Of a stretch of DNA of 64,000 bases, positions 3,143 through 15,993 are shown piece by piece; position 1 is the stretch's first letter; each line of letters opens with the position of its first letter. This DNA is from Thermoanaerobaculia bacterium (GTDB lineage: Bacteria > Acidobacteriota > Thermoanaerobaculia > Multivoradales > Multivoraceae). The position numbers and the translations under genes are program-made. Location of the stretch: assembly GCA_963664405.1 (NCBI GenBank), contig OY761158.1, forward strand, positions 768,001 to 832,000, in the 5' to 3' direction. The notes below the pieces were generated by a model. That model ran no database searches, was not told the DNA's origin, and saw only the letters and a program-made list of their open reading frames with translations.

Positions 3143-4837
<1,695 letters not shown>

Positions 4838-10461: not shown

Positions 10462-10525
10462 GGGTTGAGGGACAGGTGCGCGGAGCTTGGCAGCTCAGGC
10501 TTCAGCCGAAAAACGTCAGGCAGCG

Positions 10526-10552
10526 TGTCGCACTTGGTGGCGAAGGGCGACA
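10526..10552 (+). repeat. 27-bp site
   Basis: TGTCGC-acttggtggcgaagg-GCGACA. Confidence 0.88.
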
Positions 10553-10681
10553 GCACGAAAGCGGGCTTCTGCGCGTTGCCGGTAGAATGTCGCTCACTGG
10601 TGCCCACAGACTGAGAGATGTCTTCTGCTGAGATTCAGGATTTCCTCTACCCTCATCCTGGCGGTCCACGCGGTCGTCGCC

Positions 10682-11062
10682 GTGGTACACGACTTGGCAC
10701 ACCGCGACCTAGGCATCGAGCTGACCGAGGCCCAAACCACCTACATCAACCTGATCATCGTCGCGGCACCCGTCGTCGCTGTCATTCTCGTGTGGACAAG
10801 GTTCAAGACGGCTGGGGCCATACTCTTCGCTTTCGCCATGGCCGGCTCCCTTCTCTTTGGCCTCTACAATCACTACCTTCTCGTATCGCCCGACCACGTG
10901 TCCTACCTACCCGACGGCGATCTCCAGTCTGCCTTCCGGATCACCGCTTCGCTCCTGGCGCTCCTCGAGGCTCTGGGAGTGGCAGTTGGAATCTGGGGGG
11001 TCATTCTCGGCCGGGGCTCCGAAGGCAAAGGACCTGGAGTGCCGAGCGCGAGCGTGTCGTGA
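10682..11062 (+). CDS. Hypothetical membrane protein (true start probably further upstream)
   Basis: Several TM segments with His residues (YNHYLLVSPDHV). The frame is open upstream (ISSTLILAVHAVVAV) but has no ATG, GTG or TTG there. Confidence 0.7.
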   Translation: MVHDLAHRDLGIELTEAQTTYINLIIVAAPVVAVILVWTRFKTAGAILFAFAMAGSLLFGLYNHYLLVSPDHVSYLPDGDLQSAFRITASLLALLEALGVAVGIWGVILGRGSEGKGPGVPSASVS

Positions 11063-11205
11063 TTTGTGGCGCAAACATCATGGGATGGCGCGCGGGTGGC
11101 GCCCCCGGACGATGTCGATGAATATTCTTGAGTGGTCCTCCCCCGAAGGCGTCAAGCTTAGGGAAACACAAACACCTGGGCTTGGACCCAGGAAGGAGGA
11201 CCAAG

Positions 11206-12240
11206 ATGGAACGATACCTTGGCATCGATCCCCACCGCGACAGCTGCACGCTGGCGTTGGTGAGCCCGCGAGGCAAGAAGGTCAAGCAGATGGTGGTGCC
11301 GACCGAAGGGTCGGAGCTGGTCAAGACGGTGCGGGAGCTTCGAGGGCCGCTGCACGTCTGTGTGGAAGAGGGCGAGTGGGGCGAGTGGATCTCAGAGATT
11401 CTGACACCGTGGGTGGCTCGCCTGGTGGTCTGTCGGCCCGAGAAGCGTCGAGGTCCGAAGAGCGATGCCTGCGATGCTCGGGAGCTGGCAGAGCGTCTGC
11501 GGACGAATCGGACGGGCCCGCCGGTGTACAAGCCCGGGCAGGAGTGGGCTCGTTTGCGCGAAGCGGTGCGCCTGGAGTCGAAGCTGACCCAGGATCTGAC
11601 TCGCACGAAGCTGCGCTTGAACAGCCTTTACCGTCGGCGGGGGGTGACGTGCCCCAACGGCGACCTCTACCTACCACGGCATCGCTCGAAGTGGGTAAAA
11701 CAGCTGCCTCCGAGCGGACGTCCGTGCGCGGAGATCTGGGGCGAGCAGATCGATTTGCTCGCAGAGCTCCACGAGAAAGCAGAGAAACAGATGCACGCTG
11801 CGGCTGCGCAGTTTCCGGTCTGGAGCACGCTGCAGACCGCACCGGGGATTGCCAAGAAGCGAGCCGCGATCCTGCTCGCAACGGTGGTCACACCGCACCG
11901 GTTTCGCACCAAGCGGCAGTTTTGGTCGTACTGTGGTCTGGGAATCGTGACTCGGAGCTCCTCGGACTGGGTCCAGCAGTCCGGGCACTGGGTGCGTGCA
12001 CCGGTGATCCAGACCCGCGGTTTGAATCGGGCATCCAACCGGCCGCTGAAAGCGGTCTTCAAGGGCGCGGCGCTCTCAGCGCGCACGATGTTGGCGCCCA
12101 ACCCCTTCCGCAACCACTACGACCGCATGCTAGAAGCCGGGACGAACCCGAACCTGGCGCAGCTGACGCTGGCGCGCAAGCTCGCGGCCATCGTTTTGGC
12201 GATGTGGAAGACCGAAAGCGAGTACAAACCCATGAGCTGA
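11206..12240 (+). CDS. IS110-family transposase (DEDD recombinase)
   Basis: RBS GGAAGGAGG; YLGIDPH, CVEEG, KSDACDA, LQTAPGI, FWSYCGL..RSSS, LARKLA. Confidence 0.93.
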   Translation: MERYLGIDPHRDSCTLALVSPRGKKVKQMVVPTEGSELVKTVRELRGPLHVCVEEGEWGEWISEILTPWVARLVVCRPEKRRGPKSDACDARELAERLRTNRTGPPVYKPGQEWARLREAVRLESKLTQDLTRTKLRLNSLYRRRGVTCPNGDLYLPRHRSKWVKQLPPSGRPCAEIWGEQIDLLAELHEKAEKQMHAAAAQFPVWSTLQTAPGIAKKRAAILLATVVTPHRFRTKRQFWSYCGLGIVTRSSSDWVQQSGHWVRAPVIQTRGLNRASNRPLKAVFKGAALSARTMLAPNPFRNHYDRMLEAGTNPNLAQLTLARKLAAIVLAMWKTESEYKPMS

Positions 12241-12613
12241 TCCACCCCTTCTCCGCTCCTTGCTCGAGCCGTCTGCAGGCTGACGTAGCTCAGGAGCCTG
12301 GATCGAGAGCGGGATCGGCAGCGAGATCGAAAGGTCGAGGGGAAGTCTCCACTGTCGTCATCGGCCCCATCGAAGACGGTGGAAGTCACCAGGCGCAAAC
12401 TAGGCCCCCTCACAGGACCGAAAGAAGAAATGGCCTAAGAGGCCCCGTTGGGAAGTTGGTCCACAAACCTAGTAGGACACCAAAACTCGCTTCTTATCTC
12501 CAACGCCGCACCGCTCACACAACCGATCTGAGGACCGAACTGCGCGTAGCGGACCGGCTCGGTAACGGAAAGTACCGCGCTCGATATCAAGTCGTCGAGG
12601 GCCTAGGAAAGAT

Positions 12614-13897
12614 GGCTCTTCAGGATTTCGTGTGGGCAACAGGCCTCGGGTAGAGATCGAGTCCTCCAAGATGGAAGTAGATGGCGTTACGGAATCGCTC
12701 CCGATTACGGAATCCTCGCGCGGCTCTTTTGATGTTCTGGATCTTGGTGTTGAGGCCCTCGGACATGGCGTTGGTGACGCCGGTCTTCATGGCGTTGACG
12801 ATGCCCCACAGGTAATGGCGTAGGGTTTTGGCCACCTTCTTGATGGGAGCGAGGCGGGAACGGATCGCCCAGGAGTACCAGGAGGCCCAGGCCTGTTCGG
12901 CGTCGTCCGCGGCGCTGGTCTCCCACACGGTCATCGCCAGCTCCTTGATCGCCCAGGCCCGTGCCGTTTTCAGTGCGCTATTGCGAAGCTCCTCGAAGCG
13001 AAGCTCCTGCTCCGAGGTCATGTGGTCGGGATTGCGCAACCAGAGGTAGCGAGTCCCACTGAGCCGATCGTCGCCATCCGAGCGAAGGTCTCGATGTTCC
13101 TGGCGACGGACACGATCGACGGCGTCACCCAGAAGCTTGGCGACGTGAAACTTGTCAAAGACGATGCGCTCAAGCGGCTTGTCGAGATGCTCGCTGGCCG
13201 CCGAGATGTAGGGGCCCCACATGTCCATCGCCAGCGTCTCCACCTGGCTAAGCCACGACGCTGGAGCACCTTGCAAAAACTTCCCTAGAGCTTCCCGACC
13301 CCGACCGTCCGCGACGTGAACCACCGTCCCGTGACTGCTGTCCACGACCACCGTGACGTACTCGTGCCGGCGTTGAAACGACGTCTCGTCTACACCCAGA
13401 TGGCGGGTCGGGCGCAGCGTTCTGCGGGCCAATCCTCGGCCCACGGCACGCTGCTGAACCCCGTCGATCTGATCCCAGCTCAAACGCAGAAGCCGGGCAA
13501 CAGCCGAGAGATTCGACTCTCCAAGCCAGTCGATCGCCAGCCGCTCGAACTGTGCCGTGAAGCCCGAGCCGACCTCGGCCCACGGCACACGAACCTGACG
13601 GACGCCGTGATCTCCGCACTTCACACGAGGAACCTCCGCGACCAGAACCGTCATGTACTGCATCGTGTCGAGGTGACGCCACTTGCGCTCACGCGTGTCG
13701 TAGCGCGGACTCGCCGCTCCGCATTCCGGACACGCTAGCTTCCGTGACCCGTTCTCCAAGTGCACTTCCACCGTCTCTGGACCTAGCTCGACATCTGTCA
13801 CATGCCACGGCTCCTCGATCCCAAGAAGCTGGGCGTAAAGCTCTCGATCTCGCATACTCGCAGCATACGATCAACCCACACGAAATCCTGAAGAGCC
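12614..13897 (-). mobile_element. ISL3-family insertion sequence
   Basis: Perfect 23-bp terminal IRs GGCTCTTCAGGATTTCGTGTGGG (12614-12636 and 13875-13897); 8-bp target duplication GGAAAGAT (12606-12613 and 13898-13905). Confidence 0.96.
12620..13855 (-). CDS. ISL3-family transposase
   Basis: CPECG zinc finger, LGVDETSF, AMDMW, IVFDKFHV, TNAMSEGLNTKIQ..ARGFRN. Confidence 0.96.
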   Translation of the reverse strand: MRDRELYAQLLGIEEPWHVTDVELGPETVEVHLENGSRKLACPECGAASPRYDTRERKWRHLDTMQYMTVLVAEVPRVKCGDHGVRQVRVPWAEVGSGFTAQFERLAIDWLGESNLSAVARLLRLSWDQIDGVQQRAVGRGLARRTLRPTRHLGVDETSFQRRHEYVTVVVDSSHGTVVHVADGRGREALGKFLQGAPASWLSQVETLAMDMWGPYISAASEHLDKPLERIVFDKFHVAKLLGDAVDRVRRQEHRDLRSDGDDRLSGTRYLWLRNPDHMTSEQELRFEELRNSALKTARAWAIKELAMTVWETSAADDAEQAWASWYSWAIRSRLAPIKKVAKTLRHYLWGIVNAMKTGVTNAMSEGLNTKIQNIKRAARGFRNRERFRNAIYFHLGGLDLYPRPVAHTKS

Positions 13898-13968
13898 GGA
13901 AAGATTTGTCTTGACATCTCATCCCTTGGGAAACGACAGCCATAGCTCGATCCGCATAAAGAGACGCA

Positions 13969-14898
13969 ATGAAGACATTGAAGCGTATTACCCTGCTCGG
14001 AATACTCATGACAGCACTCGTGGCCTGCCCGGCTGCGCCCCCGGGGAGCTCGACTGATGAGGAGGCTGCCGTAAGGAGGGGCACACAGAGATTTCTGAAG
14101 GCCCACAGCCTCAAAGACTGGCCTGCTGTCGCTGCGACGTATACGGAGGACGCCGTTCTCCATCCACCCAACGCAGGCCCGGTGAAGGGCCGGGACGAGA
14201 TTCAAGAGTGGTTCGAAGCGAACGAGCAGTACACGAGCCTGGATCTGGAGATAGCCGAGATCGATGTCCGTGCGGACCTGGCCTACGTCTGGGGACTCTC
14301 CACGATAACGATCGAGGAACCAGGAAGAGAGCCGGTGGTCCTTTCGGGAAAGTACTTGGACATTCGACGGAAGCAGCCCGATGGCGACTGGCTGATCTCC
14401 GTCGATATGTTCAGCCCGAGTGAAGAATTAGGTGTAACAAATGTCGTCGGGTCAGTCGAGCCCTACGTCCAGAGCTGGGAGGAAGGAGAGATGCTCGTCG
14501 ACTCGAAGGGTCGAAAGACGTTCATCAAGGTCAGCCCTGAAACCGGAGCCCAGAGCCTGGCGTTTTTTGTTCAGCAGATGCCCTCGGGTTCCGGAATCAA
14601 GGTCCACCGACACAGCCGTGCAGAGGAAGTGCTGTTCGTACACGAGGGCTCCGGGACCTTTGTCGTGGGCGACGGGCGCGTACCCGTCGAGAAGGGGGCC
14701 ACGGTCTTTGTCCCGCCCGGCGTGTGGCATGGCTTCGAGAACCCAGACGAGCAGGTCGACCTGGCCTTCGTGGTGACACCAACCGGGCTGGAAGGTCTCT
14801 TTCGAGAGCTGTTCTGGCGCGAAGGCGAGGAGCCGAAGGTGTTCACTCCCTCGGAGATCGAGGAGATCGAACGCAAGCACGGCCAGCCCAGTCGCTGA
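13969..14898 (+). CDS. Putative lipoprotein: SnoaL/DUF4440-like (NTF2 fold) domain fused to a cupin
   Basis: Lipobox-like LVAC; YTEDAVLHPP..GKYLDIRRKQPDGDW; cupin HRHSRAEE..VPPGVWHGFEN. Confidence 0.8.
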   Translation: MKTLKRITLLGILMTALVACPAAPPGSSTDEEAAVRRGTQRFLKAHSLKDWPAVAATYTEDAVLHPPNAGPVKGRDEIQEWFEANEQYTSLDLEIAEIDVRADLAYVWGLSTITIEEPGREPVVLSGKYLDIRRKQPDGDWLISVDMFSPSEELGVTNVVGSVEPYVQSWEEGEMLVDSKGRKTFIKVSPETGAQSLAFFVQQMPSGSGIKVHRHSRAEEVLFVHEGSGTFVVGDGRVPVEKGATVFVPPGVWHGFENPDEQVDLAFVVTPTGLEGLFRELFWREGEEPKVFTPSEIEEIERKHGQPSR

Positions 14899-14931: not shown

Positions 14932-15033
14932 CGCATAGCTCGACCCGAATAAGTACCCAGAAAAGGCTCTCTAGAGCCGGCTCTCAGCGAGGAGCTGGCG
15001 ATGCCCTCCCGCCAGTCTTTGATGGACTGTGCC

Positions 15034-15123
15034 ATGAGATACCAACACAAACGTGAGCCACTGTCGATTGAGGAAGCCGATCGAATCATCAACGCCTGCG
15101 AGACAATGGAGGAGAAGATCGCG
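15034..15123 (+). pseudogene. Probable N-terminal remnant of a short tyrosine recombinase/integrase
   Basis: MRYQHKREPLSIEEADRIINACETMEEKIA resembles the start of a phage-integrase catalytic domain just before the LLxTGLR box, which is missing. Recognised from memory, not by search. Confidence 0.55.
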
Positions 15124-15453
15124 TTGGGGCAATCCCTTCACCGAGCATCACCTTCATCCAGAGTCGGCTTGCCGATAGGTTCGCTTGAACCTCTCGCCTA
15201 CCTGCACCTCGACGTTCCAGCCTTCGACGAGGACACCGAGCTCCGGAGATGGTGCATCCAGTGGAAGGCCGAGAACCGGGTATTCGGTGAACAGAGTGTC
15301 GAGGAACGGCACCACGAAGGCGTCATACCGCTCCGAATCCGAGGCATGGTTCTCCCAGAGCGAAATCAGCAATGTCCTCGCATCGTCCGACTCAGCAACC
15401 CTAGATACGCGCCACGCGCCCCAAGAGCGCTCAAAGAGGCACTCGCTCGACCT

Positions 15454-15993
15454 TCATCTTGGCTTTAGTCTCGCGCGGATGTACTCACATGCGTTGTCAG
15501 TGCACCGCGACAGGACGAACCTGCCGTCCGTGATCACGGCTCTCACCGTGTGGGCGGTGATGACCTCGCCGTCTATCAACAGGGCGACGTTCTTGCCGAG
15601 ATTCTCGCGAGACATGCGTTCGGCAGTGGCTGCTGCCCTAGGGGTGAGCGTGAAGGACAGCTCCGTAGTCCCCAGCCGCCCTTGCCACGATCGTACGGGT
15701 TCTGCCAACTCTAGAGGGACATCGGCGTGCTCGTGGAGGATGAAGTACCTTGCTGGGCGCGCCTCATCCTCGCGCAGGAACTTGTGGTCGTGCTTTGTGA
15801 CCTGCTCTCCGGGGCCTAGAGGTCGGAGATCCTCCTTTGAGCTAGCCTCTGCGAGGATGAGAAACATCCCGGTGTCGGAACCGGTGTCTTCTTGTGCGAA
15901 TGTCGTAGCAGCCCCGATGCCCACCCATGCGCCAACAACAGCGATCAAGGCAACGAGCAGCAGCCGCTGCGAGACTTTGTGGATGTCAGTCAC
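15454..15993 (-). CDS. Exported protein with a SecD/SecF P1-head-like domain
   Basis: Signal peptide; LSFTLTPRAA..ENLGKNVALLIDGEVITAHTVRAVITDG. Confidence 0.65.
   Translation of the reverse strand: MTDIHKVSQRLLLVALIAVVGAWVGIGAATTFAQEDTGSDTGMFLILAEASSKEDLRPLGPGEQVTKHDHKFLREDEARPARYFILHEHADVPLELAEPVRSWQGRLGTTELSFTLTPRAAATAERMSRENLGKNVALLIDGEVITAHTVRAVITDGRFVLSRCTDNACEYIRARLKPR

What the first reader, a model, noticed from the sequence alone, without database searches (positions are those of the whole stretch)
11055..13938. IS110 element inserted precisely inside one of the 27-bp sites
Seen: the left flank TGTCGT-GATTTGTGGCGCAAA stops abruptly at 11075. The missing half, ACGACA plus the family tail GCCATAGCTCGA, resumes at 13933. 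Rejoining over a shared AA core restores TGTCGT-N15-ACGACA, whose spacer aligns with the 14905 copy. The element's right end has TTGACA and its left end CATCAT, which on circularisation would fuse into a -35/-10 promoter with a 16-17 bp spacer. Established: IS110/IS1111 elements form such junction promoters and some target repeats (IS621 targets REP; IS1111-attC elements target attC). Inference: this IS is specialised on the new site family, which independently suggests the site is abundant and conserved.
Basis: partly seen in the sequence, partly recalled or inferred. Interest (0 to 1): 0.8.

Follow-up and report, generated by a model that had tools for sequence, protein, structure and literature searches.

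The report
RNA-guided insertion sequence in a repeat site
An IS1111-type (IS110-family) insertion sequence that appears to choose its target with its own guide RNA sits inside one copy of a 27-bp repeat found about 100 times in this genome, and a second, unrelated ISL3 element has since jumped into it; this is a new example of a known kind of mobile element.

Summary
A half-site ends at 11075, its partner ACGACA plus tail resumes at 13933, and the insert encodes a DEDD/IS110-family transposase (11206-12240).

- **Composite insert.** The 2.86-kb insert is two elements. A 1284-bp ISL3 element (12614-13897, perfect 23-bp inverted repeats, 8-bp duplication GGAAAGAT) is nested 27 bp from the right end of a roughly 1566-bp IS. 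An ISL3-free copy, 99.7% identical, lies elsewhere in the genome.
- **Site preference.** All 5 copies or relics of this IS lineage in the genome abut members of the TGTCGY-N15-RCGACA family. That family has 100 exact copies, against 0-5 for other spacings.
- **Guide RNA.** The non-coding region 3' of the transposase gene folds into a two-loop bridge/seek RNA, conserved in 12 aligned elements. Its variable strands match each element's own target flanks and right end (0 of 5000 shuffles reach the observed match). Here they read GGCGC-AA and ACGACAG, which are parts of the site.
- **Junction promoter.** TTGACA-N14-core-ACATCAT is conserved in homologues.

Caveats: homology-based ends leave this copy's site 1 nt short (N14). 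The site family was not above background in 56 relatives. No circle or empty site was seen. This is a new member of a known kind.

The parts
11055..11072 (+). Left part of the interrupted 27-bp site: arm TGTCGT plus spacer up to GGCGC (the left target)
   Evidence: GGCGC (11068-11072) equals the left-target guide at 12392-12396.
11073..11074 (+). Left copy of the 2-nt core AA
   Evidence: AA also occurs at 13931-13932. Both RNA loops carry AA at the core position. The geometry was fixed by empty sites of the G047 homologue.
11075..13930 (+). The IS1111-type (IS110-family) element, from left end ACATCATGGG to right end CCCTTGGG. It is 1564 bp once the nested ISL3 and one copy of its duplication are taken out.
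   Evidence: the ISL3-free form is 99.68% identical over 1564 nt to genome 4985430-4986993. One search gives the length and ends.
11075..11205 (+). Left non-coding end (131 nt). It holds the -10-like CATCAT (11076-11081), the subterminal repeat GGGATG (11082-11087), and a hairpin plus GGAGGA before the ATG.
11206..12240 (+). DEDD transposase/recombinase gene (344 aa)
   Evidence: Pfam PF01548 and PF02371. D8, E54/E55, D87, D90 and S252 are invariant in 7 homologues. There is a weak match to the IS621 and ISCro4 transposases in the PDB, E 5e-6.
12337..12462 (+). Predicted bridge/seek RNA with two stem-internal loop-hairpin domains
   Evidence: RNAalifold on 12 elements gives 26 pairs, 6 of them with compensatory changes. 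Guide-flank concordance is reached by 0 of 5000 shuffles.
12352..12358 (+). Right-target guide CTGTCGT, the complement of ACGACAG at 13933-13939
   Evidence: Copy B has G at 12352.
12392..12400 (+). Left-target guide GGCGC, core AA, then AC (the first 2 nt of the left end)
   Evidence: Copy B has GGCGG, which equals the flank of relic F1.
12445..12456 (+). Donor-loop strand CCGTTGGGAAGT, matching right end CCCTTGGG plus core AA
   Evidence: This strand co-varies with the right end in the homologues.
12606..12613 (.). Target-site duplication GGAAAGAT of the nested ISL3, left copy
   Evidence: D16. Copy B has this octamer once.
12614..13897 (-). Nested ISL3-family element, 1284 bp, with 23-bp perfect terminal inverted repeats and a transposase at 12620-13855
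   Evidence: A second full copy lies at genome 4270131-4271414 (99.7%). Contigs that skip 12606-13897 occur in 4 of 4 runs laid.
13898..13905 (.). Target-site duplication GGAAAGAT, right copy
13911..13916 (+). TTGACA, the -35 of the predicted circle-junction promoter, 14 nt from the right end
   Evidence: TTGAC[AT]+14 nt+core is seen in A, B, C and 14 of the 17 homologue loci with a right end in view.
13931..13932 (+). Right copy of the core AA
13933..13950 (+). Right arm ACGACA of the site, followed by the family tail GCCATAGCTCGA

Best explanation
The insert at about 11075-13930 is an IS1111-type member of the IS110 family that recognises its target through its own non-coding RNA.

**Proposed mechanism**
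- The element excises as a circle. Its right end (TTGACA + 14 nt), a 2-nt core (AA) and its left end (ACATCAT) join to form a sigma-70-like promoter. This step is inferred.
- That promoter would transcribe the DEDD recombinase gene and the RNA encoded just downstream of it (12337-12462).
- The RNA has two internal loops.
  - The target loop pairs with the right arm of the 27-bp site (ACGACA plus the next base) and with GGCG[C/G] plus the core in the spacer.
  - The donor loop pairs with the element's own right end plus the core.
- The recombinase then exchanges strands at the core, so the element lands at one fixed position and orientation inside TGTCGY-N15-RCGACA sites.

**History of the window copy.** After it inserted, an ISL3 element transposed into its right non-coding end. 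It landed 151 nt downstream of the RNA and 27 bp from the tip, and made an 8-bp duplication.

**Shown here:** the anatomy, the copies and their flanks, the conserved RNA fold, and the co-variation of guides with flanks.

**Inferred:** the circle, promoter activity, the existence of the RNA, and RNA-guided strand exchange. These rest on analogy with ISEc11 and IS621.
For: **1. Family.** Both Pfam IS110 domains are present. The D-E-D-D residues and a Ser are invariant. The protein matches the IS621 and ISCro4 transposases in the PDB.

**2. Nested ISL3.**
- It has inverted repeats and a target-site duplication.
- With the ISL3 removed, the element is colinear with copy B at 99.68% identity over 1564 nt.
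- The ISL3-free joint is present in contigs of 4 of 4 runs laid.

**3. Five of five insertions of this lineage are in site-family members.**

| Copy | Left junction | Right junction |
|---|---|---|
| A | TGTCGTGATTTGTGGCGC-AA-ACATCAT | TTGGG-AA-ACGACAG |
| B | TGTCGTGAAATCTGGCGC-AA-ACATCAT | TTGGG-AC-TGCGACA |
| F1 | TGTCGCATTATTCGGCGG-AA-ACATCAT | lost |
| F2 | a GGTG-type site | lost |
| C | a flipped site, core AG | ACGACAG |

The flanking genes differ between A and B.

**4. RNA.**
- Twelve non-coding regions from 9 genomes give a common two-domain fold with 26 pairs, 6 of them with compensatory changes.
- Across 15 lineages, guides match their own flanks better than shuffled pairings. The observed mean was reached by 0 of 5000 shuffles in every row.

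| Guide segment | Observed mean match | Shuffled mean |
|---|---|---|
| Left target + core | 6.46 of 9 | 3.71 |
| Right end + core | 7.08 of 9 | 5.34 |
| Right target | 6.38 of 7 | 4.14 |
| 2-nt 'handshake' | 1.31 of 2 | 0.58 |

**5. Core.** The core dinucleotide is the same in both loops of an element: AA here, AG in most, TG in G090.

**6. Guide polymorphism.** Two of the 5 differences between copies A and B fall in the guides (12352, 12396). They sit at the two polymorphic site positions: C/G at site position 18, and G/C just after the arm.

**7. Order of matches.** The top-strand complement comes before the bottom-strand match, the long non-coding region lies downstream of the gene, and there is a junction promoter. 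These are the IS1111 features described in PMC11187229 (passages read).

**8. Geometry.** Four empty sites of the G047 homologue fix the geometry as a 2-nt core with the left end starting ACATCAT.
Against: - **Register.** With the homology-based ends, precise excision of the window copy gives GGCGC-AA-ACGACA, a 26-bp (N14) site. No natural N14 family member exists: the 3 N14 hits look like chance. One of the two junctions is off by 1 nt either way.
- **Copy B.** Its own guides (GGCGG, ...ACGACAC) do not match its own site (GGCGC, TGCGACAA) well.
- **Relative C.** Its left guide matches its flank at only 5 of 9 positions. This copy is frameshifted.
- **Left-end guide.** No convincing guide for the left end was found. 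The 5' strand of the donor loop is conserved (AACGAAGAGAT) but complements ACATCAT only at 4-5 of 7 positions, without co-variation.
- **No Rfam hit** for the RNA.
- **No expression evidence.** Neither RNA expression nor a circle was observed. Only contigs could be laid.
- **Shuffle test.** The lineages are related, so the test overstates independence.
Confidence: 0.85

Rival explanations
1. The repeated association with the 27-bp sites comes from copying, not targeting. On this reading, array units that already carried the IS were duplicated or gene-converted, so the five cases count as one or two events.
For: - The sites lie in arrays of partly paralogous units.
- The genes upstream of copy B and relic F1 are paralogues: both end ...EELKRLVPT[E/D]*.
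Against: - Copies A and B have different flanking genes and different spacers and tails, yet the IS copies are 99.7% identical.
- F1's 88 nt of IS sequence are 97.7% identical to A, while its flank is much more diverged from B's.
- Relative C lies in a site of the opposite orientation.
- Duplication would not explain the guide matches or their co-variation in other genomes.
Confidence: 0.04
2. The element is RNA-guided, but its guides are tuned to a slightly different target, for example one in the host it came from. The 27-bp family would then be only a near-cognate, off-register substitute.
For: - There is a 1-nt register problem. The guides fit GGCGC-AA-ACGACAG, which is N14 spacing, whereas the family is N15.
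- There are 0 unoccupied perfect targets in the genome.
- No homologue was found in 33 same-family genomes, but homologues occur in other families of the order. That points to horizontal arrival.
- Runs from other studies hold a 97% variant of the IS.
Against: - With a 1-nt offset next to the inner stem, as in the G074 subgroup (CAT), the right guide TGTCGTC fits N15 sites such as GGCG[AG]-AG-GACGACA in register.
- Both guide alleles follow the two polymorphic positions of this genome's own site family.
- All 5 of 5 insertions are in the family.
Confidence: 0.08
3. Insertion into the sites is guided by DNA structure or by a host protein bound to the palindrome, not by RNA. The matches in the non-coding region would be coincidental.
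For: - The site is an imperfect palindrome lying just after stop codons.
- Some insertions match their guides poorly (B and C).
Against: - Guide and flank co-vary across 15 lineages that have unrelated targets.
- The RNA fold is conserved and shows compensatory changes.
- RNA guidance has been shown by experiment for IS1111 and IS110 elements (PMC11187229, passages read).
Confidence: 0.03

Closest known systems
IS1111-family elements with a seekRNA (ISEc11, ISPa11, ISKpn4, ISPst6; Siddiquee et al. 2024, PMC11187229, passages read)
   Same: - A DEDD transposase.
- The long non-coding region lies downstream of the gene.
- Short subterminal inverted repeats.
- -35 in the right end and -10 in the left end.
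- In the RNA, the complement of the target's top strand comes before the match to the bottom strand.
- The targets are repeated elements (REP, attC).
- Cargo placed near the right end is tolerated (catA1 after bp 1397 of 1443 in ISEc11). That parallels the nested ISL3 lying 27 bp from the end here.
   Different: - Relatedness of the proteins to those elements was not measured here, beyond shared Pfam domains.
- The target is a new 27-bp TGTCGY-N15-RCGACA site.
- The subterminal repeat is only 6 bp.
- A clear second (donor) loop that co-varies with the right end is seen here.
IS621 / ISCro4 bridge recombinases (IS110 group)
   Same: - A two-loop RNA, with one loop for the target and one for the donor.
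- A 2-nt core shared by both loops.
- Extra 'handshake' bases.
- The protein matches PDB 8wt6 and 9t56 at E of about 5e-6.
   Different: - In IS621 the RNA is encoded upstream of the gene and the order of the guides is reversed. The IS621 details are recalled, apart from what PMC11187229 states.
- Protein identity is very low and only partial stretches align.
IS1111-attC group (Tetu & Holmes 2008; Post & Hall 2009; seen only as references in PMC11187229)
   Same: An IS specialised on the recombination or repeat site that follows each gene in a co-oriented gene array.
   Different: - The site here is 27 bp and is not an attC. This judgement is by eye and from the recalled attC features; no attC model was run.
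- No integron integrase was found consistently at the array ends.
ISPpu9 of Pseudomonas putida (PMC12288879, abstract only)
   Same: An IS110-family element inserted in REP sequences, with a small-RNA gene downstream of the transposase gene.
   Different: Extra solo copies of the RNA gene exist in that genome. Here the solo pieces are left ends truncated by deletion or by another IS.

Membership tests
IS110 family (DEDD transposases) | N-terminal RuvC-like DEDD domain with the D, E, D, D residues | tested here: met
   PF01548 at E 8.5e-11, above the cut-off. D8, E54/E55, D87 and D90 are invariant in 7 homologues.
IS110 family (DEDD transposases) | C-terminal Transposase_20 domain with a conserved serine | tested here: met
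   PF02371 at E 5.4e-10. S252 is invariant. Its role as the catalytic Ser is inferred from IS621, which is recalled.
IS110 family (DEDD transposases) | No long terminal inverted repeats and no multi-bp target duplication; a short shared core instead | tested here: met
   The ends are ACATCAT... and ...CCCTTGGG. A 2-nt core lies on both sides. The empty sites of the G047 homologue hold the CGA found at both junctions only once.
IS110 family (DEDD transposases) | Circular intermediate with a promoter assembled at the junction | not testable with these tools
   The sequence allows it: TTGACA + 14 nt + AA + A, then CATCAT, a 17-nt spacer. This arrangement is conserved in homologues. No circle junction was found in the contigs laid, which cannot show rare forms.
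IS1111 subgroup | The longer non-coding region lies downstream of the transposase gene | tested here: met
   131 nt upstream (11075-11205) against 398 nt downstream once the ISL3 is removed (12241-12613 plus 13906-13930).
IS1111 subgroup | Subterminal inverted repeats | tested here: met
   GGGATG at left end +8 and right end -6, 6 bp. In 5 of the 7 relatives checked the repeat is 6-9 bp; in the other 2 only 4 bp, and one of those came from a wrongly placed right end. The repeat here is short, so this is weakly met.
IS1111 subgroup | In the seekRNA, the complement of the target's top strand precedes the bottom-strand match | tested here: met
   CTGTCGT (12352-12358) precedes GGCGCAA (12392-12398). 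The criterion comes from PMC11187229.
IS1111 subgroup | Transposase related over its full length to that of IS1111 | not tested
Bridge/seek-RNA-guided recombination | Structured RNA whose loop strands match the target flanks and the donor end | tested here: met
   Consensus fold with compensatory pairs. Guide-flank concordance is reached by 0 of 5000 shuffles.
Bridge/seek-RNA-guided recombination | The RNA is made, binds the recombinase and is needed for transposition | not testable with these tools
   Only contigs of public runs could be laid. There is no Rfam family for it.
ISL3 family (the nested element) | DDE_Tnp_ISL3 transposase with zinc ribbon and HTH; terminal inverted repeats; 8-bp target duplication | tested here: met
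   PF01610 at E 4.9e-76, plus PF14690 and PF13542. 23-nt perfect inverted repeats and GGAAAGAT on both sides. That an 8-bp duplication is typical of ISL3 is recalled.
IS1111-attC group | The target is the attC site of an integron cassette | tested here: inconclusive
   The site is a 27-bp palindrome-like repeat that follows stop codons in co-oriented arrays. It was not compared with an attC model. Tyrosine recombinase genes are not consistently at the array ends.

The most novel reading that the evidence does not exclude
The 27-bp sites would be the recombination sites of an unrecognised, integron-like gene-cassette system. They follow stop codons, are co-oriented, and punctuate about 9 arrays of mixed genes found only in this genome among 57 genomes of its family. 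This IS would then be the counterpart of the IS1111-attC elements: a guide-RNA parasite whose two guide alleles track the polymorphic positions of those sites. Its RNA loops would give a ready-made natural read-out of which site bases matter.
Probability: 0.12. Interest if true: 0.8.

Novelty: new member of a known kind. Interest (0 to 1): 0.4.

Why it matters
- **For the IS field.** This is a clean natural example of an IS1111-type element with both RNA loops readable from sequence alone. It offers a set of 15 related lineages whose guides, cores and 'handshake' bases co-vary with different targets. It also has two guide alleles in one genome, and a natural cargo (the ISL3) near the right end.
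- **For the genome.** It gives independent evidence that the 27-bp TGTCGY-N15-RCGACA repeat is a real, position-specific sequence family. A mobile element has adapted its guide to the right arm and to the GGCG[C/G] motif.
- **Limits.** It says nothing about what the sites do for the host. The element itself is ordinary in kind.

Tried and rejected
**Searches that gave nothing useful**
- **Rfam** over 10500-14500 at E up to 1 gave only a chance mir-877 hit at E 0.8. No curated family covers the RNA.
- **The search for related loci** with the single protein gave one weak partial locus. The genome search was used instead.
- **An orthologous empty site in relatives.** The 980 bp left of the IS find only the Zincin_1 gene at about 65-72% identity in 46 of 56 family genomes. 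There is no syntenic empty site.
- **Public runs.** Four were laid, and all are held only as contigs. No joint from 11075 to 13933 (empty site) and no back-joint (circle) was listed. Contigs drop rare forms, so this says nothing either way.
- **Literature on the site.** A search for TGTCGC/GCGACA/palindrom returned 79 papers. The 10 listed were unrelated (search listing only). The only other literature search was IS1111/seekRNA. I therefore do not claim that the site or this IS is unpublished. ISfinder could not be queried.
- **Supplements.** The supplementary tables of PMC11187229 list IS elements and their non-coding regions and might contain a relative.

**Ideas considered and dropped**
- **A guide for the left end** in the 5' strand of the donor loop. 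That strand is conserved (AACGAAGAGAT) and complements ACATC[A/G]T at only 4-5 of 7 positions, without co-variation. Only G081 shows a clean 5-nt match (seen by eye). No claim is made.
- **Alternative end geometry** (left end CATCAT with core GA, and variants). This was rejected for the G047 homologue because its 4 empty sites read CATAGCC-CG-ACGAT, and junctions L036 and L030 need fewer mismatches with core CG.
- **Natural N14 or N16 members of the site family** that could explain the 1-nt irregularity. The 3 N14 and 2 N16 exact hits have no family features.
- **An integrase at the array ends.** 23 Phage_integrase matches occur in the genome. Some multi-copy ones lie in or near arrays, but not at every array end, and none is near the window's array. 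This was not pursued.
- **First pass of the guide statistics**. It used wrong registers for G074, G177, G110a and G081. One search replaces it.

Full report
**1. The observation.**

- TGTCGT (11055-11060) is followed by GATTTGTGGCGCAAA up to 11075, then by CATCATGGG.
- At the other side, ...TTGACATCTCATCCCTTGGG ends at 13930. It is followed by AA (13931-13932), ACGACA (13933-13938) and the tail GCCATAGCTCGA.
- The ORF 11206-12240 carries both Pfam domains of IS110-family transposases.

The site family is not a chance pattern.
- Genome-wide there are 100 exact TGTCGY-N15-RCGACA, against 0-5 for each other spacing from N11 to N19.
- In the window the relaxed pattern is about 2.7-fold over shuffles, and 0 of 100 shuffles reach it.

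**2. The insert is two elements.**

- A perfect 23-nt inverted repeat (12614-12636 and 13875-13897) is flanked by the direct repeat GGAAAGAT.
- It encloses a 411-aa ISL3 transposase on the minus strand (PF01610, E 4.9e-76).
- I took this element and one GGAAAGAT out in a script. The remaining 1565 bp match genome 4985430-4986993 (copy B) at 99.68% over 1564 nt.
- The ISL3 has a second full copy at 4270131-4271414 and a partial one.
- Contigs from 4 of 4 public runs laid contain the joint that skips 12606-13897. The ISL3-free form therefore exists as DNA. In two of those runs it may simply be copy B.
- The ISL3 lies 151 nt downstream of the predicted RNA and 27 bp from the right tip.
- ISEc11 still moves with cargo placed 46 bp from its right end (PMC11187229, passage read). 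The window copy is therefore not necessarily dead.

**3. All copies sit in the site family.**

BLAST of the ISL3-free element against the genome finds:
- copy A, the window copy;
- copy B;
- a 68%-identical relative C (5459537-5461108), whose gene is split into two frames;
- two left-end relics, F1 (88 nt, 97.7%) and F2 (106 nt, 87.7%).

The flanks are as follows.

| Copy | Left flank and junction | Right junction |
|---|---|---|
| A | TGTCGTGATTTGTGGCGC AAA CATCAT | TTGGG AAA CGACAgccatagc |
| B | TGTCGTGAAATCTGGCGC AAA CATCAT | TTGGG ACT GCGACAagaatagc |
| F1 | TGTCGCATTATTCGGCGG AAA CATCAT | lost |
| F2 | CGTCGTGGCCGTGGGGTG AAAAT ATCAT (a GGTG-type site) | lost |
| C | TGTCGCAGTCCGCCACCA AAG TCATCAT (the site lies in the opposite orientation) | TATGGA AG ACGACAgc |

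- This makes 5 of 5 left junctions and 3 of 3 surviving right junctions in family members.
- A and B have different neighbouring genes, spacers and tails. They are separate insertions, not a duplicated block.
- F1 was cut off by another IS that has 28 copies in the genome.

**4. Homologues and the RNA.**

A search of 201 genomes of the order found the recombinase in 12, the window's own genome included. None of the 33 same-family genomes sampled had it.

Downstream of the gene, all full-length homologues share a conserved scaffold with variable inserts.

RNAalifold on 12 of them gives two stem-internal loop-hairpin domains.
- The outer stems are GAGGG/CCCTC and GAACCG/TGGTTC.
- There are 26 pairs, and 6 of them have compensatory changes.

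The variable strands can be read against each element's own flanks.
- The 3' strand of loop 1 holds the left target, the 2-nt core, and the first 2 nt of the left end.
- The 5' strand of loop 1 is the complement of the right target.
- The 3' strand of loop 2 holds the last 8 nt of the right end, the core, and the first 2 nt of the right target.

Across 15 lineages the match to the element's own flanks exceeds shuffled pairings in 5000 of 5000 shuffles for all four measures. The lineages are related, so this overstates independence. Their targets, however, are unrelated sequences.

For the window copy the guides are:
- CTGTCGT (12352-12358), the complement of ACGACAG;
- GGCGC-AA-AC (12392-12400);
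- CCGTTGGG-AA-GT (12445-12456), against the right end CCCTTGGG-AA.

The top-strand complement comes first. This is the order reported for IS1111-type seekRNAs and is reversed in IS110-type ones (PMC11187229).

Copies A and B differ at 5 positions. Two of them are in the guides (12352 C/G, 12396 C/G). They correspond to the two polymorphic positions of the site family: GGCG[C/G], and the base after the arm, G or C. A's guides fit A's own site at both positions. B's allele fits F1's flank.

**5. Ends, core and the 1-nt problem.**

TTGAC[AT] lies exactly 14 nt before the core in A, B, C and 14 of the 17 homologue loci with a right end in view.

The G047 homologue has 10 copies and 4 empty sites.
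- The empty sites read ...CATAGCC CGA CGATT...
- The occupied sites read ...CATAGCC CGA [CATCAT...TATGGA] CGA CGAT...
- Junctions L036 and L030 fit best with a 2-nt core CG and a left end that starts ACATCAT.

By homology the window element is [A]CATCAT...TTGGG with core AA. The circle junction would then be TTGGG-AA-ACATCAT, giving a 17-nt spacer between TTGACA and CATCAT.

Precise excision then restores different lengths in the two copies.
- In B it restores TGTCGTGAAATCTGGCGC-A(C)-TGCGACA, a typical 27-mer.
- In A it restores a 26-mer (N14).

No natural N14 or N16 members exist. One junction therefore carries a 1-nt irregularity, which I cannot explain. B also has a core mismatch, AA on the left and AC on the right.

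**6. What the sites are (context only).**

- The 100 exact sites cluster in about 9 regions, with one orientation per region.
- 55 are of a GGCG type and 32 of a GGTG type.
- 38 of 55 GGCG-type sites lie within 70 nt after the stop of a co-oriented ORF of at least 100 aa. The figure is 8 of 55 when the same sites are read on the other strand, and 214 of 2000 for random positions.
- The arrays hold unrelated genes: a sigma-70 factor, a Ser/Thr kinase with PD40 repeats, a Na/H exchanger, a zincin and a cupin.
- The family is specific to this genome: 100 matches against 1-10 in 56 other genomes of the family, with controls at 0-7.
- Their function was not resolved here.

**7. Verdict.**

The element is a new member of a known kind: an IS1111-type, RNA-guided IS that targets a repeat. 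It has a nested ISL3, and its target family is new and genome-specific. The mechanism beyond the anatomy is inferred by analogy with ISEc11 and IS621.

Noticed in passing
whole genome; window 557, 1751, 1818, 2829, 4861, 4926, 7695, 7761, 9867, 10526, 14905: The TGTCGY-N15-RCGACA sites form about 9 co-oriented arrays. There are two subtypes, a GGCG type and a GGTG type, and the two often form pairs about 66 bp apart. GGCG-type sites follow stop codons: 38 of 55 lie within 70 nt of one. The family is at background level in 56 other genomes of the family. It looks like a cassette-like or REP-like system of unknown function.
   Followed up: partly
genome 41336, 617787, 747662, 873849, 3944777, 4411856, 5004409, 6506590, 6523212: Odd site variants occur at array edges. 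They lack the central GGCG or GGTG and are preceded by an extra CGACA half-site (...GGCGACAGTT-TGTCGC...). Several stand upstream of a kinase-like ORF of about 890-930 aa.
   Followed up: partly
window 12352 and 12396 versus genome copy B: Two of the 5 differences between the two IS copies fall in the guide strands of the RNA. This looks like natural re-programming between two site alleles. The B allele is also the one seen in runs X3, X8 and X13.
   Followed up: partly
genome 1144219-1144818 and 27 other places: A high-copy IS cuts off relic F1 of the IS110-family element. It has 28 copies: 24 are 100% identical over the 600 nt compared, and the other 4 are 97.5-99.8% identical. It was not classified.
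   Followed up: no
genome 35274, 43025, 597334, 615598, 887650: Five tyrosine-recombinase matches score almost identically (124.1 bits) and lie in open frames of 312-316 aa. Several are inside or next to site arrays. They may be a mobile element or array-associated recombinases.
   Followed up: no
G047:C24:281551-288740: In genome G047, four identical copies of the homologous IS lie within about 7 kb at spacings of 1.7-2.2 kb. The target there is the loop region of a REP-like hairpin, CCCGACGA-ttca-TCGTCGGG.
   Followed up: partly
genome 409102, 2264036, 3366397, 5488691, 592904, 2602339 and others: Twelve further DEDD_Tnp_IS110 matches in this genome fall into about six score groups, presumably separate IS110-family lineages. 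Their targets were not examined.
   Followed up: no
window 3143-4837 and genome 5002495-5004189: A full-length sigma-70 factor ORF of 564 aa (regions 1.1 to 4) sits as one unit in the window's site array. An ORF of the same length stands at the edge of another array. Homology between the two was not checked.
   Followed up: no
window 15001-15468: A 155-aa ORF just past the last site of the array (14905) has no Pfam match.
   Followed up: no
runs X8 and X13: Runs from two other studies, with other organism labels, hold a variant of the IS at about 97% identity without the ISL3. One is a 1738-nt contig with 47 differences, many of them in the left non-coding end. In X8 the left flank 10700-11071 is also present, with 2 differences.
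   Followed up: no
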